Below, in pieces: positions 1-31,868 of a DNA stretch of 35,655 bases. How positions within the stretch are numbered: position 1 is the first letter of the stretch; every line of letters starts with the position of its first letter. The stretch spans positions 1-35,655 of the forward strand of contig CAYRSI010000002.1 of the NCBI GenBank assembly GCA_964426965.1. Direction: 5' to 3'. Under the pieces are notes generated by a model. That model was not told where the DNA came from. It was given only the letters and a program-made list of their open reading frames with translations, and ran no database searches. A program made the translations under genes and the position numbers. This DNA comes from an uncultured Candidatus Saccharibacteria bacterium. GTDB taxonomy: Bacteria > Patescibacteriota > Minisyncoccia > RBG-13-40-8-A > JAUWHN01.

Positions 1-2935
1 GAATCAATTTCATCATATAAATATAGCCAACTGTCACTTTTTGCATAAATTGTTCACCGCTTCGCCCGTCATAAAGTGTAACTTTTCCTGTTTCAGAAAA
101 ACCAGCCTTAACTAACTCTTCTTTAATCTCATCCCCCTTTACCCCGGAAAAGGAAGGGCTGTAAGTTTTATAACCTAAACGCTTTGCTGCCCAGCCCAAA
201 TGAGTTTCTGATATCTGACCAATATTCATTCGGGAAGAAACCCCTAAAGGGTTAAGAATAATATCTACTGGTGTGCCATCTTCTAAATAAGGCACGTCTT
301 CTTCTGGTAATATTTTTGAAATGACCCCTTTATTGCCGTGGCGCCCAGCTAATTTGTCGCCAACTGATATTTTTCTAAACTGAGCCACTTCTACTCGAAT
401 TGTCTTTATAACTCCGGCAGAAAGCTTATCTCCTTTATCTCTTGAAAATATCTTTATTCCAATAACCCGACCTCTTTTGCCATGAGAAAGATTTAAAGAA
501 CTATCTTTTACATCACGAGCTTTTTCGCCAAAAATAGCCCGAAGAAGTCTTTCTTCTGCTGTAAGATCAACCTCTCCTTTAGGAGAAATTTTTCCTACTA
601 AAATATCTCCTGGCCTTACCTCAGCTCCAATCCTCACTATCCCTTCCTCATCTAAATCCTTTAATCGTTCTTCTCCTACATTAGGAATGTCGGGCGTGAT
701 AATTTCCGGCCCTAATTTAGTGTCTCTAATATCGCAAGAAAACTCTTCAATATGAATCGAGCTGAACCTATCATCCTTAACTAATCTTTCAGAAATTATT
801 ATTGCATCTTCAAAATTAGCTCCTGCCCAAGGCAAAAATGCAACAAGAATATTTTGACCCAATGCTAATTCTCCTTTATCTGTTGAAGCTCCGTCTGCTA
901 AAGTATCGCCTTGTTTAACAATCTGATTCTTGCGAACTAATGGTTTCTGATTAATGCAAGTGTATTGATTAGACCGAGTAAAACTATGAAGTCGATAAAT
1001 TGTTTTGGTAAAATCAGGGCTAATCTCTACTAAGCCGCCTAATTTCTTTTTAGATTTACTAGTCTTAGAGGTAAAACTAATTCCCTTTCCTGATATAAGC
1101 TTATCGGATTTTATCTTCCTTGGGTGTTGGACAACGATATGGTCAGCGTCTACTTCTATAACCTTTCCATCTCCATAAGACAATGTTAGCTGCCCAGAAT
1201 CCTGAGCTACCTTTTTTTCAATCCCAGTTCCAACAAGCGGAGCTTCCGGATTAACCAAAGAAACAGCCTGGCGCTGCATATTTGAACCCATAAGAGCTCT
1301 ATTGGCATCATCCTGCTCTAAAAAAGGAGTAAGAGCTGTTGCTACGCTAATACACTGATAAGGAGAAACATCTATGTAATCAATCTTGTCTCTGTTGGCT
1401 ACTCCTGGTTCTCCTTTTATTCGGGCTTCAACTTTCTGATTTAAAAATCTATTATTTTTATCCAGTAACTCGCCAGTATGAGCAATAATATATTTTTGTT
1501 CTTGACTGGCATCTAAATAAACAATTTCTTTTGTTATTCTGCCATCTTTCACTTTTCGGTAGGGAGTTTCAATAAAGCCGTATTTATTAAGTCGGGCATA
1601 AGTAGCCAAGTGGCCAACCAAACCAATATTCGGCCCTTCAGGAGTCTGAATAGGACAAATCCGACCATAATGGCTTGAATGAACATCCCTAACCTCAAAT
1701 CCTGCTCTTTCTCGAGCTAATCCTCCGGGGCCCATGGCTGAAAGTCGACGCTTATGTTCAAGTTCAGCCAAAGGATTCACCTGATCCATAAACTGAGAAA
1801 GTGGAGAAGAGGTAAAAAATTCTTTAGTTGCTGCAATTAAAGGTCTTGAATTTATAAGCTGGGCAGAAGTTAGGGTATAAATATCAAGAGTTGACATTCT
1901 GTCTCGTGCAATGCGCTCCATCCTGGCAAATCCTACCCTAATCTTATTCTGCAAAAGTTCTCCTAATGACCTTACCCGCCGATTTCCTAAGTGATCAATA
2001 TCATCACCAACAGCCTTTGGATCATTGTTTAGTCGGATAATCTCCTTGACTATTAAAATTAAATCTTCAGAATGCAAAATTCTGTGCTCTTTATCTATAG
2101 GCGAATCAACTCCTAGGCGTTGATTCATTTTATATCTTCCCACCTCTGCTAAATCGTAACGGTCAAAGTTAAAAAACATATTCTCAATTAATTGCCTGGC
2201 ATTATCAATTGCAGCTAAATCACCCGGTCTAATTCTTTTATAAACCTCAAGTATCCCCTCGGCTCGGTTTTTTGAAATATCTCGCTTAAGAGTTTCTTCA
2301 ATATATTTGACATCTGGATTGTTATCAACATCTTTAAAATGACTAATTATCTCCTCGTCTTTTTCTATGCCAAAAGCCCGAATTAAGGCAGTAATCGGGA
2401 CTTTTCTTTTTCTGTCGATTTTAACTGAAATTACTCCGCTGGTATCTGTCTCAAGTTCAAGCCAAGCCCCTCGGTTAGGAATTATTTTTCCCCCATGTAA
2501 TTTTTTGCCCCTAATATATTCAGCAGTAAAAAAAACGCCCGGAGACCTAATGAGCTGGGAAACGATTACTCGCTCTACTCCATTCACTATAAAAGTCCCT
2601 CTGGGTGTTATAAGCGGAAGATCAGTTAAGAAAAGTTCCTGTTCTTTTGCTTGTTTAGTTCTTTTATTATTTAGCTTAATCTTGACTCGAAGAGCTGCCT
2701 CGTAAGAAAGGCCGTATTTTTTTGCTTCTGCTTCATTGCACTTAGCTTCATCTAAGGAATAATCCTCAAAACTTAGCTCTAAATCCTTGCCGCTGTAATC
2801 TTTAATCGGAGAAACCTCATCAAAAAGCTCTTTTAAGCCATAATCCAAAAACCACTGATAGCTAGCGAGTTGGGCTTCAATAAGATCAGGAAGAGGATAT
2901 AAATCTTTTGGGTATTTCGAAAAATATTTAATCAT
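1..2935 (-). CDS. rpoB: DNA-directed RNA polymerase beta subunit. N-terminus at 2935; the C-terminal part runs off the left edge.
   Basis: Absent from the ORF track because it has no stop in the window. My minus-strand translation from ATG 2935-2933 gives MIKYFSKYPKDLYPLPDLIEAQLASYQWFL...TPRGTFIVNGVERVIVSQLIRSPGVFF. At the left edge it reads ...VTVGYIYMMKLI. Both are classic RpoB blocks. Confidence 0.93.
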   Translation of the reverse strand, partial: MIKYFSKYPKDLYPLPDLIEAQLASYQWFLDYGLKELFDEVSPIKDYSGKDLELSFEDYSLDEAKCNEAEAKKYGLSYEAALRVKIKLNNKRTKQAKEQELFLTDLPLITPRGTFIVNGVERVIVSQLIRSPGVFFTAEYIRGKKLHGGKIIPNRGAWLELETDTSGVISVKIDRKRKVPITALIRAFGIEKDEEIISHFKDVDNNPDVKYIEETLKRDISKNRAEGILEVYKRIRPGDLAAIDNARQLIENMFFNFDRYDLAEVGRYKMNQRLGVDSPIDKEHRILHSEDLILIVKEIIRLNNDPKAVGDDIDHLGNRRVRSLGELLQNKIRVGFARMERIARDRMSTLDIYTLTSAQLINSRPLIAATKEFFTSSPLSQFMDQVNPLAELEHKRRLSAMGPGGLARERAGFEVRDVHSSHYGRICPIQTPEGPNIGLVGHLATYARLNKYGFIETPYRKVKDGRITKEIVYLDASQEQKYIIAHTGELLDKNNRFLNQKVEARIKGEPGVANRDKIDYIDVSPYQCISVATALTPFLEQDDANRALMGSNMQRQAVSLVNPEAPLVGTGIEKKVAQDSGQLTLSYGDGKVIEVDADHIVVQHPRKIKSDKLISGKGISFTSKTSKSKKKLGGLVEISPDFTKTIYRLHSFTRSNQYTCINQKPLVRKNQIVKQGDTLADGASTDKGELALGQNILVAFLPWAGANFEDAIIISERLVKDDRFSSIHIEEFSCDIRDTKLGPEIITPDIPNVGEERLKDLDEEGIVRIGAEVRPGDILVGKISPKGEVDLTAEERLLRAIFGEKARDVKDSSLNLSHGKRGRVIGIKIFSRDKGDKLSAGVIKTIRVEVAQFRKISVGDKLAGRHGNKGVISKILPEEDVPYLEDGTPVDIILNPLGVSSRMNIGQISETHLGWAAKRLGYKTYSPSFSGVKGDEIKEELVKAGFSETGKVTLYDGRSGEQFMQKVTVGYIYMMKLI

Positions 2936-5934: not shown

Positions 5935-6433
5935 TTGATTTCCTGCCTGCCGGCAGGCAGGTGTTTTTGGGCCTTTCATCTTCTTTTGACTTTCCTGTCT
6001 CATCTTTCCCCGGCTCTCCTATCTCCCGATAGATTGTTCCCAATACCCCATTAATAAACTTTCCAGAAGACTCACCGCCATAAGTTTTAGCTAACTCAAT
6101 TGCTTCATTAATGGCTACTTTTGGCGGCACTTCTTTACGGTCACCAAAGAGAAGTTCATAAAGTCCAATTCGTAAAACATTCCTGTCAACAATAGTAATT
6201 TGCTCTAATGGCCATTCTGGCGCTGCCTTTTCAATAATCTTATCAATTTTAGGCTGAAACTTCATTACGCTCTTAGCTAAACTATGAATAAAATCAACAT
6301 CCTCAGCATCCGGAGTTAATGCCTCGATGTTTCTTCCAATGACTTTCTTAAGCTCATCTGATTTCCTCTTTCTAAAATCCCATTCATAAAGGGATTGTAA
6401 TACAATTGAACGAGCTAAATGACGAGATGCCAT
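5918..6433 (-). CDS. nusB: Transcription antitermination factor NusB with a C-terminal tail that reads through a GC palindrome
   Basis: [20 protein letters not shown]...[15 protein letters not shown]...[26 protein letters not shown]. It overlaps the rnc start by 17 nt. Confidence 0.88.
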
Positions 6434-7275: not shown

Positions 7276-7821
7276 ATGACTAAACCAGAATTAGAATCTA
7301 AAAGAGAATGGTACGTACTTCATACCTACTCTGGGTATGAAGATGCAGTAGCCCATAATCTTAAGCAACGCATCGAATCTCTTGACATGGAAGACAGGAT
7401 TTTTAATGTTTTGGTTCCGAAAGAGAAAAAAATTAAGATAAAAGGAGGTAAAAGGCAAGTTGTAGAAGAAAAAATTTATCCTGGCTATGTGCTGGTGGAA
7501 ATGGTTGTTACTGATGATTCCTGGTATGTGGTCAGGAATACTCCTCGAGTAACTGGATTTATTGGCGCAGGAACCATTCCTGTACCAATCTCCGCTGAAG
7601 AGATTAAAAAAATACAAAAAAGAATGGGGGTTGAAGAACCAACTTACAAAATTGATGTTGAAGTTGACGATGCAGTAAAAATTATTGACGGTCCCTTTAG
7701 GGATTTTGACGGAAAAATAAACGAAGTAGATCAAGCAAAAGGAAAAATTAAAGTGCTGGTAAATATGTTTGGCAGAGAAACACCAGTCGAGCTAGACTTC
7801 TTGCAAGTCAAGAAGATATAG
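7276..7821 (+). CDS. nusG: Transcription termination/antitermination factor NusG
   Basis: WYVLHTYSGYEDAV..., YPGYVLVEM, and a C-terminal KOW (VKIIDGPFRDFDGKINEVD). Confidence 0.95.
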   Translation: MTKPELESKREWYVLHTYSGYEDAVAHNLKQRIESLDMEDRIFNVLVPKEKKIKIKGGKRQVVEEKIYPGYVLVEMVVTDDSWYVVRNTPRVTGFIGAGTIPVPISAEEIKKIQKRMGVEEPTYKIDVEVDDAVKIIDGPFRDFDGKINEVDQAKGKIKVLVNMFGRETPVELDFLQVKKI

Positions 7822-7996
7822 CTCAAATCACAAATAACAAGCACCAAATAACAAACAAATTCTAAGCACTAAATTCTAAATTCCAAACCCTACAGGTCCG
7901 AGACCTCGGGTCTATAGGACAGTTTTATATTTTGGTCATTGGAATTTGGAAATTGTTTGAGATGTTTGTGATTTGTAATTTGGGATTTAAACATTT
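7822..7996. repeat. Strand-skewed long imperfect inverted-repeat element, copy A: CA-rich arm, GC hairpin 7896-7920, GT-rich arm
   Basis: The left arm has only about 2 G and the right arm about 2 C. It shares gcaccaaataacaaacaaat (7841-7860) and attgtttgagatgtttgtgatttgt (7952-7976) exactly with 26835-26854 and 26924-26948. Confidence 0.85.
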
Positions 7997-9229: not shown

Positions 9230-9254
9230 TAAACCGCGAAATAATAAATCCTCA

Positions 9255-9319
9255 CAAAACTACAGAACAAAACTACAGAACAAAACTACAGAACAAAACT
9301 ACAGAACAAAACTACAGAA
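9255..9319. repeat. Perfect tandem repeat, 5 x 13 bp (CAAAACTACAGAA)
   Basis: Direct reading. There are no spacers, so it is not CRISPR-like. Confidence 0.95.
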
Positions 9320-9336
9320 ACCATCTAAATGATTAA

Positions 9337-9368
9337 TCAGCATTTTAGACGATCGTCTAAAATGCTGA
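9337..9368. repeat. Perfect 32-bp palindrome TCAGCATTTTAGACGA|TCGTCTAAAATGCTGA
   Basis: Direct reading. A degenerate copy lies at 10048-10079. Confidence 0.95.
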
Positions 9369-9389
9369 ACAACTAACATTGGTTTTTAA

Positions 9390-9433: not shown

Positions 9434-9997
9434 ATGCCAATTAAACTCCCCTTTACTGAAAAATTTCTTTGGGATTTATATAAGTTTGTAAATAAAACTG
9501 AAGGTGTATTGAGCTTCTTTATAGCAGATAGGCCTTATGGGTTTAGAGGATTAGAAGAAATGACTTGGCCTGAAATTAAAGTCTTTAAAAGCAATTGGGA
9601 ATTCGAGTACAAGAAAAAGAAAAAAGATTTTGCTAAGCTTGTATATAGTCTTAAACAAAACGGTTATATTAAAACTCTCCGAATAAAAGATAAATCGGCT
9701 ATTATGTTAACTTCTAAAGGATTAAATAAGGTTTTTACAATTAAAATAAAATTAGTAGATAAGAAAATAAGACCAGATAAAAAATGGCAGATGGTTCTTT
9801 TTGATATTCCGGAAAAGAAAAGAAGGCAAAGAAATTTGTTTAGAAAAAATCTTCAATATTTAGGCTACAAAAAACTTCAAAGAAGTATCTGGGTTTGCCC
9901 ATATGATGTGTTAAATGAAACAAAAGATTTAATTAAAAGATATAGGCTTGAGCCGCATGTGGAATTATTATTAGTTAAAAAAATCGGCTTGGGTTAA
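9434..9997 (+). CDS. Putative DNA-binding regulator, PaaX-like (wHTH plus Cas2-like ferredoxin-fold module)
   Basis: WQMVLFDIPEKKRRQRNLFRKNLQYLGYKKLQRSIWVCPYD matches the PaaX/Cas2-fold beta-alpha-beta-beta pattern as I remember it. Upstream, LVYSLKQNGYIKT...LTSKGL looks like a wHTH. Confidence 0.45.
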   Translation: MPIKLPFTEKFLWDLYKFVNKTEGVLSFFIADRPYGFRGLEEMTWPEIKVFKSNWEFEYKKKKKDFAKLVYSLKQNGYIKTLRIKDKSAIMLTSKGLNKVFTIKIKLVDKKIRPDKKWQMVLFDIPEKKRRQRNLFRKNLQYLGYKKLQRSIWVCPYDVLNETKDLIKRYRLEPHVELLLVKKIGLG

Positions 9998-10047
9998 AGG
10001 ATTGATATTTAAATAATATTATTTGTTCTATCTTTATTTAGCATTTA

Positions 10048-10079
10048 TCAGCATTTATGACGATCGTTAAAAAAGCTGA
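10048..10079. repeat. Degenerate second copy of the 32-bp palindrome (TCAGCATTTATGACGATCGTTAAAAAAGCTGA)
   Basis: Same length and the same ends and centre (TCAGCATTT...GACGATCGT...GCTGA) as 9337-9368. Confidence 0.8.
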
Positions 10080-10146
10080 ACTCAAAGTCCAAATCCAGAA
10101 TGCTAAAACTTTATTTATCAAACTAAAAATGCTAACATAAAACTAT

Positions 10147-11643
10147 ATGAAATTTCAACCAACAATTGGATTAGAAATACACGTGCAATTAAAAACCAAA
10201 ACAAAAATGTTTTGTGGCTGTCTTAATAAGACAGAGGAAAAACAGCCCAATTTCAATATTTGTCCGATTTGTATGGGACATCCTGGAATTCTGCCAGTAA
10301 TTAATAAAAAGGCGGTCAGGGACGTTATAAAAACCGGCTTAACCCTAGACTGCCAAATTGTTGAAAAAACTTGGTTTGAGAGAAAAAATTATTTCTATCC
10401 TGATCTTCCAAAAAACTACCAAATAAGTCAGCGCGAAAGGCCCTTGTGTAAAAACGGAAAATTAAAAATAAAAAATCAAGCCGTTAAAATAAGGGAAATA
10501 CACCTAGAAGAAGATACGGGAAAGCTCTTTCATTCTGAAAAAGAAGAGAGTTCATTAATTGACTTTAATCGGGCTGGCATCCCTTTAATGGAATTAGTTA
10601 CTGAGCCGGATATTCATTCAGCTATTGAAGCCAGAAGATTCTGCGAAGAACTTCGATTAATTTTAAGATATCTTGGAGTTTCTGATGCTGATATGGAAAA
10701 AGGAGAGATGAGGTGCGAAGCGAATGTTTCTTTAAAAGAAAAAGAGGAATTAGGAACTAAAGTAGAAATTAAAAATCTAAATTCATTTAAGGCAGTAGAA
10801 AGAGCAATTGTTTATGAAATAAAACGACAAAAAGAACTTTTAGAAAGTGAAAAAAAAATCATCCATGAAACACGCGGCTGGAACGAAAATAAACAAAAAA
10901 CTTTCTCCCAAAGGACAAAAGAAACAGCAGGAGATTATAGGTACTTTATTGAACCGGACTTACCGCCTCTAAAAATCTCTAAGGAGGATATCATAAAAAT
11001 AAAAGCTGGAATTCCTGAGCTACCAGCTAATAGAAGAAAAAGGTTTAAACAAGAATATAAAATTTCTGAAAGCCACATAGAGGTTCTTACAAATCATAAA
11101 GCTTTAGGCGACTATTTTGAAAAAGTTGTCAGCGAACTGAAAAATTGGGAAAAAACCGCCACAGCGGGATTGTCGGGAAAAACATATAAATTAATTAAAT
11201 TAACTGCTAATTATTTAATTACTGAACTTCGTAAACTTTTGCGTGATTTTGAAGAAAAATATATTGAGAATTTAAAAATAGCCCCAGAAAACTTTGCCGA
11301 ATTTATAATCTTAGTTAACCAAGATAAAATTTCCAGCAGTGCCGCGCAAACAGTGCTCAAAGAAATGTTTGAAACCGGAGCTGATCCTTCTCATATTATT
11401 GAAGAAAAAGACTTAACCCAGGTAAGCGATGAAACAAAACTTAAGAAAATTATAGAAAAAGTAATAAAAAATAATCCCAAACCAGCAAGAGATTATAAAG
11501 ATGGTAAAGCCGAATCTATTCAATTTTTAATTGGTCAAGTTATGCAAGCCAGCAAAGGAAAGGCAAATCCTCAAATAGCTTCTAAGTTATTGGTTAAAGA
11601 ACTAAAATCTATTCCCAAACACATAAAAATTGTGAATTGTTAA
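10147..11643 (+). CDS. gatB: Asp/Glu-tRNA(Asn/Gln) amidotransferase subunit B
   Basis: IGLEIHVQLKTKTKMFCGC...ICPICMGHPG...NRAGIPLMELVTEPD, plus a C-terminal YqeY-like tail. Confidence 0.95.
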   Translation: MKFQPTIGLEIHVQLKTKTKMFCGCLNKTEEKQPNFNICPICMGHPGILPVINKKAVRDVIKTGLTLDCQIVEKTWFERKNYFYPDLPKNYQISQRERPLCKNGKLKIKNQAVKIREIHLEEDTGKLFHSEKEESSLIDFNRAGIPLMELVTEPDIHSAIEARRFCEELRLILRYLGVSDADMEKGEMRCEANVSLKEKEELGTKVEIKNLNSFKAVERAIVYEIKRQKELLESEKKIIHETRGWNENKQKTFSQRTKETAGDYRYFIEPDLPPLKISKEDIIKIKAGIPELPANRRKRFKQEYKISESHIEVLTNHKALGDYFEKVVSELKNWEKTATAGLSGKTYKLIKLTANYLITELRKLLRDFEEKYIENLKIAPENFAEFIILVNQDKISSSAAQTVLKEMFETGADPSHIIEEKDLTQVSDETKLKKIIEKVIKNNPKPARDYKDGKAESIQFLIGQVMQASKGKANPQIASKLLVKELKSIPKHIKIVNC

Positions 11644-11653
11644 CTAATTTACT

Positions 11654-11899
11654 ATGAATTTTGAGATACCGGAAAACAAAGAATTAAAAAAGAAAGAATT
11701 AGACGAGCAAATTGCAAAACTTGAAAAAGAAGTTCAAGATTTGGAGAAGGAAAAAAAGAAAGACGAAGAATCAAGAAAAAGAATAGCTGAAAGCTTAGAA
11801 AAAGATACTATTCCATGCAAGTATACTGATACAGGATTATCCGAAACAAAACAAAGATTAAATGAACTTAAACAAGAAAGAGAAAAACTCGAAGACTAG
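11654..11899 (+). CDS. Hypothetical K/E-rich coiled-coil protein (81 aa)
   Basis: ORF only. Its 3' end overlaps the convergent miaBA 3' end by 42 nt. Confidence 0.4.
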   Translation: MNFEIPENKELKKKELDEQIAKLEKEVQDLEKEKKKDEESRKRIAESLEKDTIPCKYTDTGLSETKQRLNELKQEREKLED

Positions 11900-13861
11900 T
11901 TTCTCGGCTTCTCGGTAATTACTTACCCAATGAATTCTTTTGTCACGCTTAAACCAAGTCATTTGGCGTTTTGCATAATGTTCAATTTCTTTTTGAAGTT
12001 TTTCAACCATTTCTTGTTTGGTTATTTTTCCTTGAAGATACTTAGCAATATAACGATACTCTAATCCAAAATCATCCAACCTTTTCCACGACAAGCCTCC
12101 GCCAGCTGGCGGATTTTTTAACTTTTTAACTTCAGCAATCATGCCTTTCTTAAGACGATGTAGCAATCGTTTTTTTATTAAGACTTTTAACTTTTGATTC
12201 GATTTTTTTATACCGACTATTAAAACATCCCGGCCTACGGCCTGCCTGCCGGCAGGACAGGATGGTCCGCCCGCTTCGCCGCGAGGCGAGCCGTAGACGG
12301 AAAATTGAAGAGGGGGCACTGGTTTGCCAGATTTAATAACTATCTCCAAGGCCCGGATTAAACGCCGCCTATTTTTGGAATCAATATTTTTAGCTCGACG
12401 GGGGTCGAGTTTTTTTAATTTTTTAAACAAAGCTTCGGTGGTTTCTTTTTCTAAATTTTTTCTTAGCCTTAAATCAGGTTTTACTCTTGGAATAATTAAT
12501 CCTTCAACAACTGCCTGAATATAAAATCCGGTTCCACCACAAAGAATTGGAACTTTTCCTTTTTTGTAAATTCTATTAATTGTCTGAAGTGCTTTTCTTT
12601 GATATTGAGCAACTGTAAATCTCCTCTTTGGATTAGCTGCATCTAAAAGATAATGCGGAATCCCCTGCATCTCTTTTTTAGTAATTTTGCCGGTCCCAAT
12701 ATCCATACCCTTATAAACCTGTCTCGAATCAGCAGAAATAATTTCTCCGTTAAACTTTTTAGCAAGCTTAACAGCTAAATCAGATTTTCCTGAAGCAGTT
12801 GGTCCCAAGACTACTATTAATTTCTCTTTCTTTTTAAGAATATCGTCTAATATCTTCCAACGGCGCTTCTTTTCATTCCATGATATACTATCTTTAAATT
12901 TAACAGCAGCTGTTCCCGACCTCGGAGAGTATTTATTAATATATGCTATATCATAATTAACTTGTTTAAATATCTTTACTGTGTTTTGAAATTGCTTTTT
13001 TGTTTCTCCTGGAAAACCAACAATAACGTCTGTAGATAACTTAACATTAGGAATCTTTTTTCTGATTTTATTAACCAAACTTAAATATTGTTTAACCGTA
13101 TATTTTCTGTTCATTTTCTTTAAAATCTCATCGTCCCCGCTTTGAATAGGCAAATGTATTTCCTTGACGACTTTTTCGCATTTGGCAATTGTATCAATTA
13201 ATTCATTAGACATATCCTTTGGGTGATTAGTTAAAAAATGAATTTTAAAATTGCCAGGAAGTTTATTAATTTTATTAAGCAAGTCAACAAAACCATATTC
13301 GCCCGCCTTACCGCAAGACAGGTAAGAATTAACATTTTGTCCTATTAGGGTTATTTTTTTATAACCATTTTTAATTAAGTTTTTTATTTCATCTATTATT
13401 TCTTGGACTGGCCTTGAAACTTCCCTTCCCCGAGTATAAGGAACTACGCAATAAGTACAAAAATTATCACAGCCAGTCATTATAGGAACAAAAGCTGAAA
13501 ATTTATTAATACATTTAGGTTTCAAAGATAGGTAATTTTTTCCCAGAAATTTTTCAATATCCAATACTTCGTCAAAAAACTTTCTGAACTTTATTCTATC
13601 AGACTTTAAAATACAGCCAGTTAATATTTTTTTAGCTTTCAGGCGAGCAAATTTTTGTTTCAGCCCGAAAATCCTATCTATTGCAGTTTGCCGAACCGAA
13701 CAAGCATTAACAACAATCAAATCAGCCTTCGCTAAAGCTTTGGCGGACGAGTCAGCCCCTTTTACGGGCTTATATCCTTTATTTTCCAAAACAGCTGCAA
13801 TCCGCTCACTATCAGAATAATTCATCTGACAACCAAAAGTTTTTATAAAATATGTTTTCAT
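11858..13861 (-). CDS. Fusion protein: radical-SAM methylthiotransferase MiaB (no TRAM domain) plus tRNA dimethylallyltransferase MiaA
   Basis: N-terminal half: MKTYFIKTFGCQMNYSDSE and CDNFCTYCVVPYTRGRE. C-terminal half: LIVVLGPTASGKSDLA...ISADSRQVYKGMDIGTGK...QRKALQ. It is one uninterrupted frame. Start chosen at 13861 (the track ORF begins at 13933, inside a terminator hairpin). Confidence 0.88.
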   Translation of the reverse strand: MKTYFIKTFGCQMNYSDSERIAAVLENKGYKPVKGADSSAKALAKADLIVVNACSVRQTAIDRIFGLKQKFARLKAKKILTGCILKSDRIKFRKFFDEVLDIEKFLGKNYLSLKPKCINKFSAFVPIMTGCDNFCTYCVVPYTRGREVSRPVQEIIDEIKNLIKNGYKKITLIGQNVNSYLSCGKAGEYGFVDLLNKINKLPGNFKIHFLTNHPKDMSNELIDTIAKCEKVVKEIHLPIQSGDDEILKKMNRKYTVKQYLSLVNKIRKKIPNVKLSTDVIVGFPGETKKQFQNTVKIFKQVNYDIAYINKYSPRSGTAAVKFKDSISWNEKKRRWKILDDILKKKEKLIVVLGPTASGKSDLAVKLAKKFNGEIISADSRQVYKGMDIGTGKITKKEMQGIPHYLLDAANPKRRFTVAQYQRKALQTINRIYKKGKVPILCGGTGFYIQAVVEGLIIPRVKPDLRLRKNLEKETTEALFKKLKKLDPRRAKNIDSKNRRRLIRALEIVIKSGKPVPPLQFSVYGSPRGEAGGPSCPAGRQAVGRDVLIVGIKKSNQKLKVLIKKRLLHRLKKGMIAEVKKLKNPPAGGGLSWKRLDDFGLEYRYIAKYLQGKITKQEMVEKLQKEIEHYAKRQMTWFKRDKRIHWVSNYREAEKLVFEFFSFLFKFI
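12231..12300. repeat. GC-rich composite palindromic element inside the miaA half
   Basis: CTACGGC-CTGCCTGCCGGCAGG...CGCCCGCTTCGCCGCGAGGCGAGCC-GTAG. It shares modules with 5942-5961 and 24178-24218. Confidence 0.85.
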
Positions 13862-13868
13862 AAAGAAT

Positions 13869-13897
13869 ATCATAACAGGTACTAAAAAGATTGACAA
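13869..13897 (-). promoter_or_regulatory. Putative promoter of miaBA, with the -10 only 7 nt from the ATG
   Basis: Minus strand reads TTGTCA, 17 nt, TATGAT, attcttt, ATG. Confidence 0.45.
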
Positions 13898-13916
13898 GAA
13901 TGCGCTTTGACTAAAA

Positions 13917-13948
13917 CAGCCCCGACGTAACATCGGGGCTGTTTTTTT
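13917..13948 (-). terminator. Rho-independent terminator hairpin (bidirectional in appearance) after the Kazal-domain gene
   Basis: CAGCCCCGA-cgtaaca-TCGGGGCTG, flanked by AAAA and TTTTTTT. Confidence 0.75.
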
Positions 13949-17047: not shown

Positions 17048-20000
17048 TGCAAAGAATTTTTAGTTGGTCGTCTTTATCGCTCAAACGACCGGAAAGAATT
17101 ATAATTTTTCCTTCCTGCCAAACAATAGGATTTCGCTCAAGAATAGAAGGAAAAACCAAAACTTCAATTTTTCCGGTCAAATCTTCAAGCTCAACAAAGA
17201 GCATTGGCTTGCCGACTTTAGTAATAAACTTCTTTATCGTGTTTATTATACCAACAATTCGGACTCTTTTACCAGCCTGATTCAAGTCAAGACTTTTAAT
17301 GCTATCTGCATTTTCTTTTAAAAATGATTGATGTCTATCTAGGGGATGCTCTGAAACATAAATACCAAGCAGCTCCTTTTCCCAGGTCAGTTTTTCGCCA
17401 TCCTGAAACTCTGAAATGTCTTTTGCTCTTAAAGTAAAAAGGTTAGAAGACTGCGAAGAAATGGAGTCAAAAAGGCTTGTCTGCCTATTAGATTTTGCTT
17501 TATAAATTTCTCTGGAATAATTAAGCATTCCTTCTAAATTCGCCAGTAGTTGAACTCGTTCTCCTAACTGGTCAAAAGTGCCTGCCTTAATCAAGCTCTC
17601 AAGAGATTTTTTATTAAAATCTTTTGATTCTACCCTATCAAGAAAATCACCGATTGATTTATAGCGGCCGTTCTTTTTTCGCTCTTTGACAATTGCTTCA
17701 ACAACATTATGACCAACGTTTTTAATAGCTGTAAGCCCGAATCTAATAGAAGCCGGGGGAATCAAAGTAAAATTCTCAAGACTCTCATTAATATCAGGCG
17801 GCAAAACATCAATTCCTTCTTTCTTGGCTTCGCTCACTAAAACTGCTATTCTATCAATATCATTTTGCTCAGAATTCATCAAGGCAGTCATAAATTCTGA
17901 AGTATAATGAGCTTTAAGATAAGCAGTTTGATAGCCAATTAAAGCATAGCAGGTTGCATGACTCCTGTTAAACCCATAATTGGCAAAAGGTTCAATAAAT
18001 TCCCATATTCTTTGAGCTGTTCGTTCATCAATTTTGTTTTTAACCATTCCTTTAATCATTTTATCTGCTTGCTCATCAAGAAGTTTCTTGATTTTTTTAC
18101 CCACTGCCTTTCTTAAAACATCAGCTTCTGACAAACTAAATCCTGCCAAATCCCGAACAATTCGTAATAACTGCTCCTGATAAACAGCAATCCCATAAGT
18201 ACTCTTTAAGATCGGTTCTAATTTAGGATGAATATAGCCTATCTTTTTCTCACCGTGCTTCCTTGCTATAAATTCAGGAATAAGCTCAATGGGACCCGGT
18301 CTATATAAAGCAACCATTGCTATAATGTCCTCAAATTCTGTTGGCTTGAGCTGTTGAAGATATCGTTTCATTCCTGACGACTCTAGTTGAAAAACGCCAG
18401 TAGTATTTGCCTTTTGAAAAAGTTTAAAAACTTTCTTATCATTTAAAGGAATATTATCAATATCAATTTCTTTATTTCTTAGTTTTTTAATAATATTAAT
18501 AGCATTTTCTATAGTAGTTAAATTCTTTAACCCAAGAAAGTCCATTTTTAAAAGGCCTAAATCTTCTATGGCATGCATTTCGTATTGAGTCACAATAGTC
18601 TCATCATCCCGAGAAGCCCGTTGCCTTGGAGTATAATTATCAATATTGTCCTTGGTTATTACTACCCCGCAAGCATGAGTAGAAGCATGACGAGCCACTC
18701 CTTCTAATTTTCTGGCTAAATCAATAAGTCGTTTAGTTTGAGGATCAGTTTCATAACTTTCCTTTAGTTCCGGTACTTTTTTAAGAGCTTGCTCTAGTGA
18801 CCAAGAAAAAGGAATCGCTTTTGCTAACTGGTCACAAAATGTATATGTATAATTTAAAGCTCTCCCAACGTCTCTAATTACAGCCCGGGCTGCCATGGTT
18901 CCAAAGGTAATAATCTGAGCCATATGATCCCGGCCATATTTCTGAGCCACATAATCAATAACTTCGTCTCTTCGAGTATCAGCAAAATCTAAATCAATAT
19001 CAGGCATACTAATTCTTTCGGGATTTAAAAATCTCTCAAAAAGAAGACCAAATTTTAACGGATCAACGTTGGTAATATTCAAAAGATAAGCAACAAGACT
19101 TCCTCCCACGCTTCCTCGACCAGGTCCCACTACTATTCCTTTGTCTTTTGCCCAATTAACAAAGTCCTGAACAATTAAAAAATAAGAGGCAAAACCAGTT
19201 TTTTTAATAACCTCAAGTTCATAATCTAAACGTTTCTTTGCCTCTGAACTGACTTTTTTATATCTTTCTTTAAATCCCTTCAAGCACATTTTTTTCAAAT
19301 ACATATCAGTACTTATTCCTTTAGGGAGAGAAAAATGGGGCAGCTCTATTTTCCCCAATTCAATTTCTAAATTACACTGTTCTACAATCTTTTGGGTATT
19401 TCTAATGGCTTCTGGGACATCTTTAAAAGATTTAATCATTTCTTCTTTGCTCTTCATGGAAAAATCATCGTCCATTATCAGCCTATCTTCATCTTCAATT
19501 GTATGATTGGTTTGAATGCACATTAAAATTTCCTGAGCTTCAGCATCTTCTGGATTAATATAATGAACATCATTGGTAGCTACTAAAGGTATGCCTGTTT
19601 TTTTTGAAATTTCTTTTAGGGCTTTATTTACCTCTGTTTGTCCTTCCAGATTGTGGTGAGGAAGCAACTCTAAATAAAAATTACCTTGGCCAAAAATATC
19701 CTGATATTCAAGAGCTACTTTTTCAGCTTTTTTAATATCGCCACCTAAAACTGTCTTGGCAATTTCGCCACCAAGACAAGCTGACATAGCTACTAAGCCC
19801 TCAGCATGCTCTTTAAGAAGCCCCTTATCAACCCTGGGCTTATAATAAAACCCTTCTAAATGAGCCCTGGTAATTAACTGGATTAAATTATGATAACCAA
19901 TTTTGTTTTTAGCCAAAACAATAAGGTGCCATCTTTTTTTATCAACGTTTGGTCTTTTAAAATGTCTTCCTTCTGGAGCAATATAAAGCTCAGCTCCGAT

Positions 20001-20292: not shown

Positions 20293-24448
<4,156 letters not shown>

Positions 24449-26812: not shown

Positions 26813-26961
26813 AAGTTAAAATCACAAGCACCAAGCACCAAATAACAAACAAATACCAAGCACCAAATTCTAATGACTAAAACGGAAAATTACTGTTTGG
26901 AATTTAGGATTTTGAATTTGGATATTGTTTGAGATGTTTGTGATTTGTTATTTGAGATTTA
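26813..26961. repeat. Strand-skewed long imperfect inverted-repeat element, copy B. Its right end contains the gatA stop codon and last four codons.
   Basis: Shares the same two exact blocks as copy A, in the same order and orientation. The left arm is G-poor and the right arm C-poor. Confidence 0.85.
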
Positions 26962-29822: not shown

Positions 29823-31868
29823 CTATTTTACCATCTTTAAAAATTGCCTTTCGGATAATATTTTTATTCCTAATTTACGTGCTTTATCAAATTTTGACCC
29901 CGGCTCCTCTCCTACTACAACCCAATCCGTGCTTTTGGAAACCGAACTCGAGATATCTCCGCCAAGCTGGCGGATTTTTTCTTTTGCTTGTTCGCGACTC
30001 AAGCTCTCTAGCTCACCAGTTAGAACAAAAGTCTTGGCTTGTAGCTTTTTCCGCCCAGGGCGGACCAGCCTTGGGCTGGTTATCTTTACTCCCACTCTAC
30101 CTAATTTTTCTAATAATTTCAAATTCTTTTTATCCCTAAACCAATTATAAAGGCTTTTTGCCATTATTTCGCCAATATCCTTAACCTTGGAAAAATCCTC
30201 AATTTCCGCTTTTTTTAAGTTTTCTAAGTTCCCGTAATAATTTGCTAAATTAATCGCGCTTTCCTCGCCAACATGCCTGATGCCTAAAGCAAAAATAAAT
30301 TTATGAAAGGGGATGATTTTACTTTTTTCAATTCCTATTGCTAAATTGGAAGCTGACTTTTCAGCAAATTTCTCCAAGGAAATTAAATCTCCTTGTTTTA
30401 GTTCAAATACATCAGAAAAATTAGAAACCAATCCTTGATCCACTAACTGATTTATTATTTTTGGTCCCAATCCCTCTATATCAAAGGCTTTTTTGCAAAC
30501 AAAATGATAAAGCTTTCGTCTTTGAATTGCTCCGCATTGAGGATTACTGCAGCGATGAGCTGCTTCTCCTTTTGGTCGGACGACTAAGGATCCGCAAACA
30601 GGACATTTTTTGGGCATGTAAAATTTCTTTTCTTTACCAGTTCTTAAACGAGGCAAAACTTGAGTCACGTCAGGAATAACGTCTCCGGCTCGCTGAATAA
30701 TCACCGTATCCCCTATTTTTACACCCAGTCTTTTAATTTCATCTTCATTATGAAGAGTAGCTCGGGTAATGGTCGTTCCTCCAACTTGTACCGGCCTTAA
30801 ATAAGCAACCGGGGTTAATGCACCTGTTCGACCTATCTGAACTTTAATATCTTCAATCACTGTTGCTGCCTGTTCGGCTGGAAATTTAAAAGCAACCATT
30901 CCTCGATGAGCCTTACCAACAGAGCCCAATCTTTCAAAAACTCTATTATTATTAACACCAACAACCACCCCGTCAATCTGGAAGGGCAGTTTCTTCCTTT
31001 CTCTCATTGCTTTTTTCCAGAAAACTACTGCTTGTTCTAAATTTTTACAGTATTTTCCTTCGTCAGTTTTAAATCCTAAATCTTTGGAAATCTGATGTTC
31101 TTCCTGATGAGTCGTTTGCCCTAAATCAGTTACTAAATCATAGGCTAAAAAGTTCAAATCCCTAGAAGCAGCAAGCTCTGGATTCAACTGCCTGATACTG
31201 CCGGCTGCAGTATTGCGGGGATTAGCATATAAGAGTAGTTTTTGTTTTTTTCTTTCTTTGTTAACTTTCTCAAAAGCTTTCTTATCCATATAAACCTCAC
31301 CCCTGATTTCGACCTCTCCATTTTTAATTAATTGGCTTGCCTTCTGCTTAATCTTTCTATTTGGTAATTTGCCATGAATATCAATTCGAAGAGGAATCGA
31401 GGCGACTGTTTTAAGATTCTGAGTAACGCCTTCTCCAATCCTGCCATCGCCTCTAGTTGAACCTTGAACAAAAACTCCATTTTTATAAATTAAAGCAATG
31501 CCAAAACCATCAATTTTCATCTCAATAAAATAGTCTAATTTTTCACGAGGCACCAATTTTTGAATCCTCTCTTGCCAAGCTCTTAATTCTTCTTCAGAAA
31601 AAATATCTTCAATAGAAAGCATGGACACTTTATGATGAACCTTTTCAAATTTCTCCAAAGGCTTGCCCCCGACCCGCTGAGTTGGGGAATCTGACGTAAT
31701 AAACTCTGGATATTCTTGCTCTAATTTATACAGCTCATGTTTTAAAGAGTCAAAAGCTGCGTCTGGAATCTCCGGGCGATCTAAAACATGATAAAGATAA
31801 CGATGATAATTTATCACTTTTTTTAGCTTCTCAATCCGTTGTTTAGCTTGTTTTTTGTCCATCATCAC
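29823..31868 (-). CDS. ligA: NAD-dependent DNA ligase
   Basis: ...EMKIDGFGIALIY... (KxDG), a Zn finger CPVCGS...CSNPQC, HhH repeats and a C-terminal BRCT (FVLTG...GGDISSSVSKSTDWVVVGEEPGSK). Confidence 0.96.
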   Translation of the reverse strand: MMMDKKQAKQRIEKLKKVINYHRYLYHVLDRPEIPDAAFDSLKHELYKLEQEYPEFITSDSPTQRVGGKPLEKFEKVHHKVSMLSIEDIFSEEELRAWQERIQKLVPREKLDYFIEMKIDGFGIALIYKNGVFVQGSTRGDGRIGEGVTQNLKTVASIPLRIDIHGKLPNRKIKQKASQLIKNGEVEIRGEVYMDKKAFEKVNKERKKQKLLLYANPRNTAAGSIRQLNPELAASRDLNFLAYDLVTDLGQTTHQEEHQISKDLGFKTDEGKYCKNLEQAVVFWKKAMRERKKLPFQIDGVVVGVNNNRVFERLGSVGKAHRGMVAFKFPAEQAATVIEDIKVQIGRTGALTPVAYLRPVQVGGTTITRATLHNEDEIKRLGVKIGDTVIIQRAGDVIPDVTQVLPRLRTGKEKKFYMPKKCPVCGSLVVRPKGEAAHRCSNPQCGAIQRRKLYHFVCKKAFDIEGLGPKIINQLVDQGLVSNFSDVFELKQGDLISLEKFAEKSASNLAIGIEKSKIIPFHKFIFALGIRHVGEESAINLANYYGNLENLKKAEIEDFSKVKDIGEIMAKSLYNWFRDKKNLKLLEKLGRVGVKITSPRLVRPGRKKLQAKTFVLTGELESLSREQAKEKIRQLGGDISSSVSKSTDWVVVGEEPGSKFDKARKLGIKILSERQFLKMVK

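What the first reader, a model, noticed from the sequence alone, without database searches (positions are those of the whole stretch)
12231..12300. Composite copy of the GC-rich palindromic element inside the MiaA half of the fusion gene
The sequence is cggCCTACGGC-CTGCCTGCCGGCAGG-acaggatggtc-CGCCCGCTTCGCCGCGAGGCGAGCC-GTAGacgg. Terminal inverted repeats CTACGGC and GCCGTAG enclose both modules seen elsewhere: the CCTGCC(TGCC)GGCAGG palindrome of 5942-5961 and the CCCGCTTCGC-N-GCGAGGCGAGCC core of 24186-24208. It is translated as SVYGSPRGEAGGPSCPAGRQAVGRD. The corresponding linker in E. coli MiaA (from memory) is about 17 aa shorter. Both this copy and the pheT copy yield an -AGRQA- peptide, so the same frame of the element is tolerated at both sites.
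Basis: partly seen in the sequence, partly recalled or inferred. Interest (0 to 1): 0.72.

Follow-up and report, generated by a model that had tools for sequence, protein, structure and literature searches.

The report
Nested GC-rich palindromes inserted in miaA
A 75-base GC-rich hairpin sequence, built from three small palindromic modules nested inside one another, sits in frame in a surface loop of the tRNA-modifying enzyme MiaA of an AT-rich ultra-small (Patescibacteria/CPR-type) bacterium. It belongs to a widespread family of tiny, apparently selfish DNA hairpins that add loops to essential proteins.

Summary
Window 12230-12304 is about 70% GC in a 35.6% GC window and is translated in frame inside the MiaA half of a real MiaB-MiaA fusion ORF. 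Two further assemblies reproduce it at 100% identity.

It is an insertion. The closest syntenic relative (84% aa identity outside the loop) has the plain 11-aa loop, as do about 80% of some 200 orthologues. Solved MiaA structures are 14-15 aa shorter here. AlphaFold models the insert as a low-confidence coil.

It is composite. Natural intermediates sit at the same Phe|Asp codon junction:
- L135 carries a 30-nt double hairpin (B).
- L005 carries B plus a 21-nt CCTGCC...GGCAGG palindrome (P).
- The window carries B+P plus a 21-nt CCCGCTTCGC-N-GCGAGGCGAG hairpin (C).

P, B and C recur in pheT, nusB and ligA, and in dnaE, gatB, thrS and gyrB of relatives, each absent from the other genomes. C occurs in many phyla, in both orientations and all six frames, with loops of 0/3/6/9 nt. 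P also occurs in viral contigs.

Best reading: non-autonomous, REP/RPE/GC-cluster-like selfish palindromes that nest into each other and survive in permissive loops. The mobilising enzyme is unknown. This is a new variant of a known kind.

The parts
12230..12304 (-). Whole composite insert (75 nt; coding strand TTTTCCG...GGCCGG), encoding F-SVYGSPRGEAGGPSCPAGRQAVGR between the conserved Phe and Asp of the MiaA loop
   Evidence: It is absent from syntenic L001-L004. The alignment breaks at window 12229/12321 and the net difference is 60 nt. GC is about 70%. Fold is -43.1 kcal/mol, z = -3.6.
12269..12289 (+). Module C: a 21-nt hairpin GCCCGCTTCGCCGCGAGGCGA. Its boundaries are ambiguous by the 3-nt GCC repeated at both junctions.
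   Evidence: This is exactly the 21-nt gap when the window is aligned to L005. The same core lies at 24186-24208 and in at least 63 low-GC loci of other genomes.
12239..12259 (.). Module P: a 21-nt CCTGCC(TGCC)GGCAGG-type palindrome inserted in the loop of B hairpin 2
   Evidence: L005 has the homologous 21 nt (TGCCTCGCCGGTAGGCGGGCC). L135 and the other plain B copies lack it. P stands alone at 5942-5961.
12290..12304 (-). B remnant: T-run plus 5' arm, loop and part of the 3' arm of hairpin 1 (coding strand TTTTCCGTCTACGGC).
   Evidence: Aligned with plain B copies TTTTCCGCC-NNN-GGCGGA in L005, L135, window ligA, L180 and L187.
12260..12268 (-). B remnant: end of hairpin 1 plus 5' arm of hairpin 2 (coding strand GGACCATCC; GGACCAGCC in plain B)
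12230..12238 (-). B remnant: loop plus 3' arm of hairpin 2 (coding strand GTAGGCCGG; TCGGGCTGG in plain B).
   Evidence: In the window copy it pairs with 12290-12304 to close one long stem.
11858..13933 (-). Host gene: a 691-aa MiaB-like (UPF0004 + radical SAM) - MiaA (IPPT) fusion ORF
   Evidence: Pfam domains. All 49 columns invariant in 81 MiaA sequences are kept. Relatives have two genes separated by an opposite-strand ORF. The junction is reproduced in L259/L260.
12098..12113 (.). A second, small palindrome in the same gene, TCCGCCAGCTGGCGGA (PPAGGG). It is 12 nt longer than L005 here.
   Evidence: It is patchy among orthologues: KNPPAGGGLSW against KKSGLSW.
24178..24219 (.). pheT copy: module C (24186-24207) nested off-centre in a P palindrome. 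Translated as [15 protein letters not shown].
   Evidence: The linker is 46 aa against a mode of 31-32 in 120 orthologues and is 15 aa longer than solved PheT.
5942..5961 (.). Plain P: a perfect 20-nt palindrome CCTGCCTGCCGGCAGGCAGG at the nusB 3' end / rnc start
30050..30079 (+). Plain B: double hairpin TCCGCC-CAG-GGCGGA-CCAGCC-TTG-GGCTGG in ligA, in the opposite orientation to the gene (peptide SPRLVRPGR)
   Evidence: Fold z = -3.4 to -3.5.
17750..17765 (-). Empty site in window dnaE, where relative L001 carries a 60-nt composite containing a C-type core (ASTRVGPLRRIEASEPTRGG)

Best explanation
The segment is a nested composite of three tiny, non-autonomous GC-rich palindromic DNA elements, that is, selfish hairpins.

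The three layers:
- **B:** a 30-nt double hairpin lies between the Phe (TTT) and Asp (GAY) codons of a MiaA surface loop.
- **P:** a 21-nt CCTGCC...GGCAGG palindrome lies in the loop of B's second hairpin.
- **C:** a 21-nt CCCGCTTCGC-N-GCGAGGCGAG hairpin lies in the 3' arm of B's first hairpin.

Why it persists: each layer is a multiple of 3 nt and free of stop codons, so the gene stays open. The 24 extra residues are translated as a disordered loop away from the conserved core.

Shown:
- presence/absence polymorphism at this and many other sites;
- the modular 21-nt steps;
- multiple copies in unrelated genes, genomes and phyla;
- use of both orientations and all frames;
- retention of all invariant MiaA residues.

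Inferred:
- The modules are copied in trans by a hairpin-recognising, single-strand DNA enzyme (HUH/RAYT-like or unknown), or spread by short-patch recombination.
- They prefer existing GC hairpins and easily melted AT-rich low-complexity linkers as targets.
- The peptide itself has no function.
For: - **Insertion status.**
  - L001-L004 (82-88% nt identity, syntenic) have PIPVLKAESSF|DVL where the window has PVPPLQF-[24 aa]-DVL.
  - 99 of 121 and 67 of 81 orthologues have an 11-13-aa loop.
  - Solved MiaA structures are 14-15 aa shorter here.
  - AlphaFold gives pLDDT below 50 for residues 188-206 only, with a confident fold elsewhere.
- **Nested series.** L135 carries B, L005 carries B + 21 nt, and the window carries B + 21 + 21 nt at the same codon junction. 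Four further plain B copies fix the ground state.
- **Mobility.** An unbiased indel scan of the window against L001 and L005 finds lineage-specific in-frame GC palindromes:
  - gatB (+18 and +36, P-type);
  - thrS (+21, P-type);
  - gyrB (+15);
  - dnaE (+60 with a C core, and +33);
  - miaB (+33).
- **Family breadth.**
  - The C core is found in at least 120 stretches of GTDB genomes.
  - 63 of those lie in loci below 50% GC from many Patescibacteria classes, Omnitrophota, Lentimicrobiaceae, Pirellulales and others. Similar C-core repeats sit in 55-58% GC Nitrospira contigs.
  - It is often flanked by P arms.
  - 36 of the 63 lie inside ORFs of at least 150 aa, in both orientations and all six frames.
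  - Loop lengths are 0/3/6/9 in 55 of 63, against 5 of 41 chance hits in high-GC genomes.
  - The exact P 20-mer occurs in 35 viral stretches.
- **Hairpin excess.**
  - GC-rich hairpins are 3-fold over expectation in 542 kb of CPR loci.
  - They are 11-fold over expectation in the window.
- **Independent assemblies.** They reproduce the element.
- **Gene integrity.** All 49 invariant MiaA columns are kept.
Against: - No transposase or other candidate mobilising gene lies in the window, and none was identified elsewhere.
- No consistent target-site duplication was found. The GCC at both 21-nt junctions shrinks to 1 nt in other P+C composites.
- No GTAG/CGTC tag is enriched next to C.
- The three hosts carrying B, B+P and B+P+C are not sister lineages. 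The simple story of stepwise nesting in one vertical line cannot be literally true. It needs either repeated site-specific insertion or short-patch transfer.
- Translation of the insert is inferred from the open frame, not observed.
- Stem-preserving double changes between the window and L005 copies could mean the structure itself is under selection, which fits a selfish element but also a function.
Confidence: 0.7

Rival explanations
1. The hairpin is a selected cis-acting structure in the mRNA or DNA of this gene. It could be a translational pause or folding spacer between MiaA subdomains, an RNase III/E processing or stabilising site in the fused miaB-miaA message, or a gyrase/nucleoid-protein site as proposed for REP/BIME. 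On this view it is not passive selfish DNA.
For: - The predicted stem is very stable (-43 to -47 kcal/mol, z about -3.6).
- Between the window and L005 copies, several positions of the long-range stem differ on both sides yet still pair (sequences).
- rnc is encoded in the window.
Against: - The nearest relative and about 80% of orthologues lack any insert here.
- About 18% carry unrelated palindromes of other families at the same loop.
- The same modules sit in pheT, ligA, nusB, dnaE, gatB, thrS and gyrB in either orientation, with no common position relative to gene features.
- Only two or three sequences are available for covariation.
Confidence: 0.1
2. The motifs are DNA-uptake-signal-like sequences. 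They would be enriched because these bacteria import DNA and recombine it, and they would accumulate in tolerant parts of proteins as USS/DUS do in Haemophilus and Neisseria.
For: - Short over-represented motifs, sometimes as inverted pairs, are located preferentially in poorly conserved protein segments.
- The patchy distribution among non-sister lineages, with only a short shared flank, would fit short-patch recombination.
Against: - The differences are clean 15-60-nt insertions, not substitutions.
- Several unrelated motif families coexist.
- Density is a few per 35 kb, not about 1 per kb.
- The same 20-22-mers occur across phyla and in high-GC viral contigs, unlike species-specific uptake signals.
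Confidence: 0.05
3. This is ordinary lineage-specific loop expansion (slippage, duplication, GC-biased drift) or an assembly artefact. The palindromy and the shared strings would then be coincidental.
For: The loop is variable in length among orthologues, and the flanking linkers are low-complexity.
Against: - Shared exact 15- and 22-mers have expectations of 0.00-0.02 in shuffles.
- The same modules occur in other genes and genomes.
- Three independent assemblies are identical.
- Relatives' inserts are reproduced in three to four assemblies each.
Confidence: 0.02
4. This is a variant of the best explanation. The composite was not built in place. It was assembled elsewhere and arrived as a ready-made B+P(+C) unit, or was imported with about 15 nt of flank from another lineage by recombination.
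For: - The window, P0002/L005 and L135 each have closer MiaA relatives without the insert.
- The window and L005 share CCTCTTNAATTTTCC immediately upstream, plus a host loop 4 aa shorter. The window's flanks further out are L001-like.
Against: - No other B+P or B+P+C composite was seen in about 2 Mb of fetched sequence.
- Window-L005 element identity (74% over 39 nt) is no higher than that of the surrounding gene (about 69-72%).
Confidence: 0.3

Closest known systems
Rickettsia palindromic elements (RPE; Ogata et al. 2000, from my own knowledge; summarised in PMC3733652)
   Same: They are palindromic repeats inserted in frame into intact, functional ORFs, including dnaE, in a small AT-rich genome. 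They are tolerated because they land in permissive protein regions, and they are polymorphic between relatives.
   Different: RPEs are about 100-150 bp, are not notably GC-rich and are confined to Rickettsia. PMC3733652 says they carry a CGTC tag. Here the units are 15-30 nt, more than 70% GC, modular and nested, and found across phyla. There is no sequence similarity, and NCBIfam gave no hit.
REP/BIME elements and intragenic REPs (Di Nocera et al. 2013, PMC3733652)
   Same: They are short imperfect palindromes. That paper reports REPs inside replication, repair, ligase and aminoacyl-tRNA synthetase genes, and REPs inserted within small target palindromes such as CCGSSCC(n3,4)GGSSCGG. Both features are seen here. 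REPs are thought to be mobilised in trans by HUH tyrosine transposases (RAYTs).
   Different: No GTAG or CGTC tag is enriched beside module C, although the window copy happens to have GTAG/CTAC at both ends. More than half of the low-GC copies are intragenic. No RAYT was identified. The host is a CPR bacterium.
Mobile GC clusters of yeast mitochondrial DNA (e.g. GC42; Wu & Hao 2015, PMC4478555)
   Same: They are GC-rich hairpin elements scattered in a very AT-rich genome. Their stems are conserved more than their loops. They show presence/absence polymorphism. [quoted passage not shown] Their transposition mechanism is unresolved.
   Different: They are organellar, mostly intergenic, 30-50 bp, and have an AG target-site duplication. 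The present modules are bacterial and viral, frequently in frame in essential genes, and have no consistent duplication.
Double-hairpin and repetitive hairpin elements of organelles (Allomyces DHEs, cited in PMC4478555; sponge RHEs, PMC2800124; Nematomorpha coding palindromes, PMC6649704)
   Same: They share the two-hairpin architecture (module B) and the occurrence of hairpins within coding sequence.
   Different: The hosts, sequences and sizes differ, and there is no evidence of homology.

Membership tests
REP/BIME (RAYT-mobilised) | Short (20-40 bp) imperfect palindrome, repeated in the genome | tested here: met
   B, P and C are 15-30-nt palindromes with several copies in the window and in relatives.
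REP/BIME (RAYT-mobilised) | Conserved GTAG (or CGTC) tetranucleotide at one end of the hairpin | tested here: not met
   Within 25 nt of 63 C copies, GTAG was found 0 times upstream and 5 downstream, CTAC 3 and 4, and CGTC 4 and 5. About 2.5 per side is expected. The GTAG/CTAC ends of the window copy are not shared by L005 or L135.
REP/BIME (RAYT-mobilised) | Associated RAYT / IS200-IS605-type Y1 transposase in the genome | not tested
   The window ORFs that were profiled and the gene calls of the syntenic relatives show no transposase domain. The remaining window ORFs were not scanned, and whole genomes were not available.
REP/BIME (RAYT-mobilised) | Predominantly extragenic location | tested here: not met
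   36 of 63 low-GC C copies lie in ORFs of at least 150 aa. All the window's B/P/C copies listed under parts lie within ORFs.
Rickettsia palindromic elements (RPE) | In-frame insertion into ORFs that stay intact | tested here: met
Rickettsia palindromic elements (RPE) | About 100-150-bp unit with sequence similarity to the RPE-1..8 consensus or protein-level RPE models | tested here: not met
   The units are 15-30 nt. NCBIfam gave 0 families for the insert peptide at E <= 1. Rfam had no match.
Yeast mitochondrial GC clusters | GC-rich hairpins dispersed in a very AT-rich genome, polymorphic between strains, forming composites | tested here: met
   Composites.
Yeast mitochondrial GC clusters | AG/TAG target-site duplication; mitochondrial host | tested here: not met
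   The junctions show GCC, C or no repeat. The host is bacterial.
MITE | Terminal inverted repeats matching a parent IS, fixed-length target-site duplication, 50-500 bp | tested here: not met
   The modules are 15-30 nt. There is no fixed duplication. No parent IS was seen. Flanking 7-14-nt direct repeats are part of low-complexity host sequence.
DNA uptake sequences (USS/DUS) | One species-specific 9-12-nt motif at about 1 per kb, arising by substitution | tested here: not met
   There are several motif families, a few copies per 35 kb, a cross-phylum distribution and an indel origin.

The most novel reading that the evidence does not exclude
B, P and C are members of a so far undescribed, cross-phylum (and phage-borne) class of 15-30-nt 'nano-transposons'. 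On this reading:
- They are mobilised by an unknown enzyme specific for hairpins in single-strand DNA.
- They preferentially nest into one another in 7-codon (21-nt) steps.
- They have been shaped by selection to be coding-compatible: length a multiple of 3, no stop codons, any frame.

They would then act as a general generator of new surface loops in essential proteins, and of long variable arms in tRNAs, in streamlined CPR genomes. The same Phe|Asp codon junction of MiaA would have been hit repeatedly because of target specificity.
Probability: 0.25. Interest if true: 0.8.

Novelty: new variant of a known kind. Interest (0 to 1): 0.6.

Why it matters
In-frame selfish palindromes are textbook for Rickettsia and organelles. 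They are not described for Patescibacteria/CPR in the literature I could search. None of five copy-specific strings of modules C and P searched occurs in 8.3 million papers, and no Rfam or NCBIfam model matches.

- **A layer-by-layer record.** Natural intermediates at one codon junction (B, then B+P, then B+P+C) show how such elements build composites and lengthen protein loops in 7-codon steps.
- **Annotation and phylogenetics.** Annotators and phylogeneticists working on CPR proteins should expect GC-rich 'PAGRQA / GSPRGEAG / PPAGGG'-type peptides that are not homologous residues. About 18% of MiaA and many PheT orthologues carry some such insert.
- **An open transfer question.** The cross-phylum and viral spread of identical 20-22-mers raises the question of who mobilises them and how they are transferred.

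Tried and rejected
- **Rfam.** The whole window at gathering threshold, 12150-12400 at E <= 10, and 15 C-bearing loci gave only tRNAs, chance hits and an unrelated group II intron.
- **NCBIfam** on the insert peptide gave nothing.
- **Literature.**
  - Searches for the exact strings gave no paper.
  - Searches for CPR plus palindromic, GC-rich or in-frame terms gave no paper describing this.
- **GTAG/CGTC tag enrichment** next to C was not significant, so a classical REP assignment was dropped.
- **'PVPP' upstream motif.** The idea that it marks insert-bearing alleles was not supported (9 of 33 against 33 of 168, p = 0.35).
- **Exact-protein look-ups.** The fusion protein, GatB and FtsW were not on record. 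The neighbouring 81-aa ORF worked instead.
- **Simple vertical history** (one gain, nested additions): rejected as stated, because the three hosts are not sisters and P0001 keeps the full ancestral loop.
- **Flanking 7-14-nt direct repeats as target-site duplications:** judged unreliable, because the flanks are themselves tandem low-complexity sequence.
- **ligA 29958-29974** (TCCGCCAAGCTGGCGGA) could not be shown to be an insert. It encodes the conserved BRCT 'LGG' region.
Full report
**1. The observation**

The window is 35.6% GC. Positions 12223-12302 form its largest GC island, at about 70% GC.
- The inverted repeats CTACGGC (12235-12241) and GCCGTAG (12290-12296) are there.
- CTGCCTGCCGGCAGG recurs at 5943-5957, giving 2 loci against 0.02 expected from dinucleotide-preserving shuffles.
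- CCCGCTTCGCNGCGAGGCGAGCC recurs at 24186-24208, giving 2 matches against 0.00 expected, even with 3 mismatches allowed.
- The mRNA-sense 75-mer folds at -43.1 kcal/mol (z = -3.6; 0 of 200 shuffles as stable). The antisense strand folds less well (z = -2.2).
- Two independent read-set assemblies (Logan SRR3085435 and SRR3085416) match window 11520-13558 at 100%. That span includes the element, so it is not an assembly artefact.

**2. Gene context**

The element lies in ORF 11858-13933 (minus strand, 691 aa). This ORF contains UPF0004 + radical SAM (MiaB-like, no TRAM domain) followed by a complete IPPT/MiaA domain.
- In the syntenic relatives L001-L004 and L005-L007 the two genes are separate. 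An opposite-strand ORF of 146-156 aa lies between them. The window has lost about 540 nt and fused the two genes.
- The junction is also reproduced in L259/L260.
- The window MiaA keeps all 49 columns that are invariant in an 81-sequence alignment, so the gene looks functional.
- MiaA hits are Patescibacteria (Pacebacteria, Parcubacteria, Minisyncoccales).

**3. It is an insertion in a permissive loop**

- L001-L004 are 82-88% identical in nucleotides, and their MiaA is 84% identical in amino acids outside the loop. They read ...TGKPIPVLKAESSF|DVLMVGIKKS. The window reads ...SGKPVPPLQF-SVYGSPRGEAGGPSCPAGRQAVGR-DVLIVGIKKS, a net gain of 20 aa or 60 nt.
- Loop lengths among orthologues:
  - Among the window plus 120 database orthologues, 99 have 11-12 residues between the conserved GK and DVL. 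The other 22 have 19-37.
  - Among 80 further metagenomic loci plus the window, 67 have 10-13.
- The long loops carry many different inserts rich in Gly, Arg, Pro and Ala. Examples are SVIPAQAGIH..RFRGDD, PPFREGWGG, AGSRTRQ.LPRTDLG and TSDV..RRTS. At DNA level, where available, they are GC-rich palindromes. This loop is therefore a hotspot.
- Solved MiaA structures (2QGN, 3D3Q) are 14-15 aa shorter here.
- An AlphaFold2 model has mean pLDDT 81.7. It places the insert between helix 163-176 and strand 210-216 as coil, with pLDDT below 50 for residues 188-206. The rest of the fold is confident.

**4. Anatomy: three nested modules with natural intermediates**

On the coding strand the window reads:

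TTTTCCGTCTACGGC [TCGCCTCGCGGCGAAGCGGGC] GGACCATCC [TGTCCTGCCGGCAGGCAGGCC] GTAGGCCGG | GAT

The segment lengths are 15 + 21 + 9 + 21 + 9 nt.
- **L005 (P0002)** has, at the same Phe|Asp junction, TTTTCCGCCCCAGGC GGACCAGCC [TGCCTCGCCGGTAGGCGGGCC] TCGGGCTGG | GAC. This is the window version minus exactly 21 nt.
- **L135** has TTTCCCGCCGAAGGCGGACCAGCCTCGGGCTGG | GAT. This is L005 minus another exactly 21 nt.
- **Module B.** The L135 form is a double hairpin, TCCGCC-N3-GGCGGA followed by CCAGCC-N3-GGCTGG. It also occurs alone in window ligA (30050-79), elsewhere in L180 (in its MiaA N-terminal part) and in L187.
- **Module P.** The first 21-nt unit is a CCTGCC..GGCAGG palindrome lying in the loop of hairpin 2.
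- **Module C.** The second 21-nt unit is the hairpin CCCGCTTCGC-N-GCGAGGCGAG lying in the 3' arm of hairpin 1. Both 21-nt junctions are ambiguous by a repeated GCC.
- **Remodelling in the window copy.** The insertion disrupted hairpin 1, and the two former B loops (now TAC and GTA) have become complementary. L005 and L135 fold as separate hairpins.

**5. The modules behave as a dispersed, polymorphic family**

*In the window:*
- P stands alone at 5942-5961, at the nusB tail.
- P+C lies in pheT (24178-24219). That linker is 46 aa against a mode of 31-32 in 120 orthologues, and 31 in the 75%-identical P0121. Other orthologues carry P-type peptides (LPAGRQG, CLPVGRR) in the same linker.
- B lies in ligA.
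- A 12-nt-longer palindrome TCCGCCAGCTGGCGGA lies elsewhere in miaA.

*Indel scan of syntenic blocks.* An unbiased scan found lineage-specific, in-frame GC palindromes:
- **L001:** gatB +18 (ACCTGCCTGCCGGTAGGC), gatB +36 (P-type), dnaE +60 (a composite with a C-type core; the window is the empty site at about 17757), dnaE +33, and miaB +33.
- **L005:** thrS +21 (AACCTGCCTGCCGGTAGGCAG) and gyrB +15 (TCCGCCTTTGGCGGA).

*Scan of one genome per GTDB species for CCCGCTTCGC-N(0-10)-GAGGCGAGC:*
- Of 121 matches, 63 are in loci below 50% GC. These come from many Patescibacteria classes, Omnitrophota, Lentimicrobiaceae (several contigs of one MAG), Pirellulales and AT-rich Gammaproteobacteria. Nitrospira carries a similar C-core repeat on 55-58% GC contigs.
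- The matches are frequently embedded in P arms (cctgcctgccgg-C-aggcagg, or cctgcctg-C-cggcaaggcagg).
- 36 of the 63 lie in ORFs of at least 150 aa, in both orientations (22 to 14 by my count) and all six frames.
- Loop lengths are 0, 3, 6 or 9 nt in 55 of 63, against 5 of 41 for chance hits in loci of at least 60% GC.

*Other evidence:*
- The exact P 20-mer occurs in 35 IMG/VR stretches. One lies in the variable arm of a 92-nt tRNA-Met.
- GC-rich perfect hairpins number 66 against 21 expected in 542 kb of CPR loci, and 8 against 0.7 expected in the window.

**6. Most likely mechanism**

*Shown:*
- These are insertions, polymorphic between close relatives.
- They are modular and recur at unrelated sites.
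- They do not depend on frame or orientation.
- They are tolerated in loops of genes that otherwise remain conserved.

*Inferred:*
- They are non-autonomous selfish hairpins copied in trans. Single-strand hairpin recognition by an HUH/RAYT-like enzyme is the best precedent, and it would explain the lack of a consistent target duplication.
- They prefer existing GC hairpins (hence nesting) and AT-rich low-complexity linkers.
- Only variants whose length is a multiple of 3 and that lack stop codons persist, because about 90% of such genomes is coding.
- The encoded peptide is a by-product.

I put 0.7 on the reading 'mobile selfish palindrome family, nested composite, neutral passenger loop'. I put much less, about 0.3, on any specific enzyme.

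**7. What does not fit**

- The hosts of B, B+P and B+P+C are not sister lineages. Each has closer relatives with the plain loop.
- P0001 keeps the full ancestral loop, whereas the window and L005 share a host loop 4 aa shorter.
- So either the same TTT|GAY junction was hit repeatedly, or a short patch (the element plus about 15 nt) moved laterally. The window's flanks further out are L001-like, not L005-like. This is unresolved.
- Module C keeps one G.T and one C.A position in its stem in all copies, which suggests sequence-specific recognition.

**8. Rivals**

- **A selected regulatory hairpin for this gene** is unlikely. The insert is absent from the nearest relative, unrelated palindromes occupy the same loop, and the modules are scattered over unrelated genes.
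- **Uptake-signal-like motifs** are unlikely. The origin is by indel, several families coexist, density is low, and the motifs are shared across phyla and with viruses.
- **Chance or artefact** is excluded.

**9. Comparison with known systems**

- **What it works like:** Rickettsia palindromic elements, intragenic REPs, and yeast mitochondrial GC clusters, including their mergers into composites (PMC3733652, PMC4478555).
- **Membership:**
  - **GTAG/CGTC-tagged REP:** not a member.
  - **RPE:** not a member, on size, sequence and host.
  - **MITE:** not a member, because there is no parent IS and no fixed target duplication.
  - **Rfam:** the modules match no Rfam family.
  - **Literature:** none of the five copy-specific strings of modules C and P that I searched occurs in the searchable literature.

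**10. Verdict**

It is a new variant of a known kind, not a new category. Three things raise its interest:
- the layer-by-layer natural series at one codon junction;
- the very small module size;
- the breadth of hosts, which includes CPR essential genes and viral contigs.

Noticed in passing
window 11858-13933 (junction about 12824-12860): miaB-like and miaA form one continuous 691-aa ORF. In relatives L001 and L005 they are separate genes with a 146-156-aa opposite-strand ORF (about 540 nt) between them. The fusion junction is identical in two further assemblies (L259, L260).
   Followed up: partly
L248 2239-2330 (P at 2284-2303); also L225 8616-8635 and L255 515-534: The exact P palindrome CCTGCCTGCCGGCAGGCAGG sits in the variable arm of a 92-nt tRNA-Met called by ARAGORN in a viral contig. 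In L255 it sits in a tRNA D-loop-like context. P also occurs in 35 IMG/VR stretches, many at 60-68% GC, often between short direct repeats.
   Followed up: partly
window 7820-7989 and 26814-26961: There are two intergenic structures of about 150-170 nt. Each has inverted arms made of 7-nt AT-rich repeats (CAAATAA-like / TTTGGAA-like). The first surrounds a GC palindrome (7887-7918 ACCCTACAGGTCCGAGACCTCGGGTCTATAGG) and is absent at that position in L005.
   Followed up: no
window 9332-9370 and 10043-10081: Two copies of a palindrome of about 32 nt (TCAGCATTTTAGACGATCGTCTAAAATGCTGA) bracket the PaaX_M-like ORF 9434-9997. In L001 the orthologous ORF lies next to gyrB instead, so the cassette has moved.
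   Followed up: no
window 12098-12113: The 16-nt palindrome TCCGCCAGCTGGCGGA encodes PPAGGG in MiaA. It is 12 nt longer than L005 here and patchy among orthologues (KNPPAGGGLSW against KKSGLSW). The same TCCGCC-N-GGCGGA hairpin is a 15-nt L005-specific insert in gyrB.
   Followed up: partly
L001 4336-4409 (dnaE); L001 inserts at window positions 10544 and 10744 (gatB); L005 insert at window position 16949 (thrS): Relatives carry their own in-frame GC palindromes where the window is empty. dnaE has a 60-nt composite with a C-type core. gatB has 18- and 36-nt P-type inserts. thrS has a 21-nt P-type insert.
   Followed up: yes
window 23987-24262 (PheT aa 72-163 region; linker aa 79-124): The PheT linker is a second insertion hotspot. 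The window has the longest linker of 121 sequences. P0233 (LPAGRQG), P0123 (CLPVGRR) and P0126 (AEGGSASGG) carry P- or B-like peptides there.
   Followed up: partly
window 9254-9332: A perfect tandem repeat of a 13-nt unit (ACAAAACTACAGA), about 5 copies, lies in an intergenic region.
   Followed up: no
L005 10001-10990 (P0002 residues about 54-76): P0002 has a second, AT-richer palindromic insert of about 54 nt in the MiaA N-terminal part (GCCTGCCCCGTACTAAAATTCGAATAATTTTTAGTATCGGGG; peptide PDTKNYSNFSTGQAKKKYIFTH). It is absent from the window.
   Followed up: no
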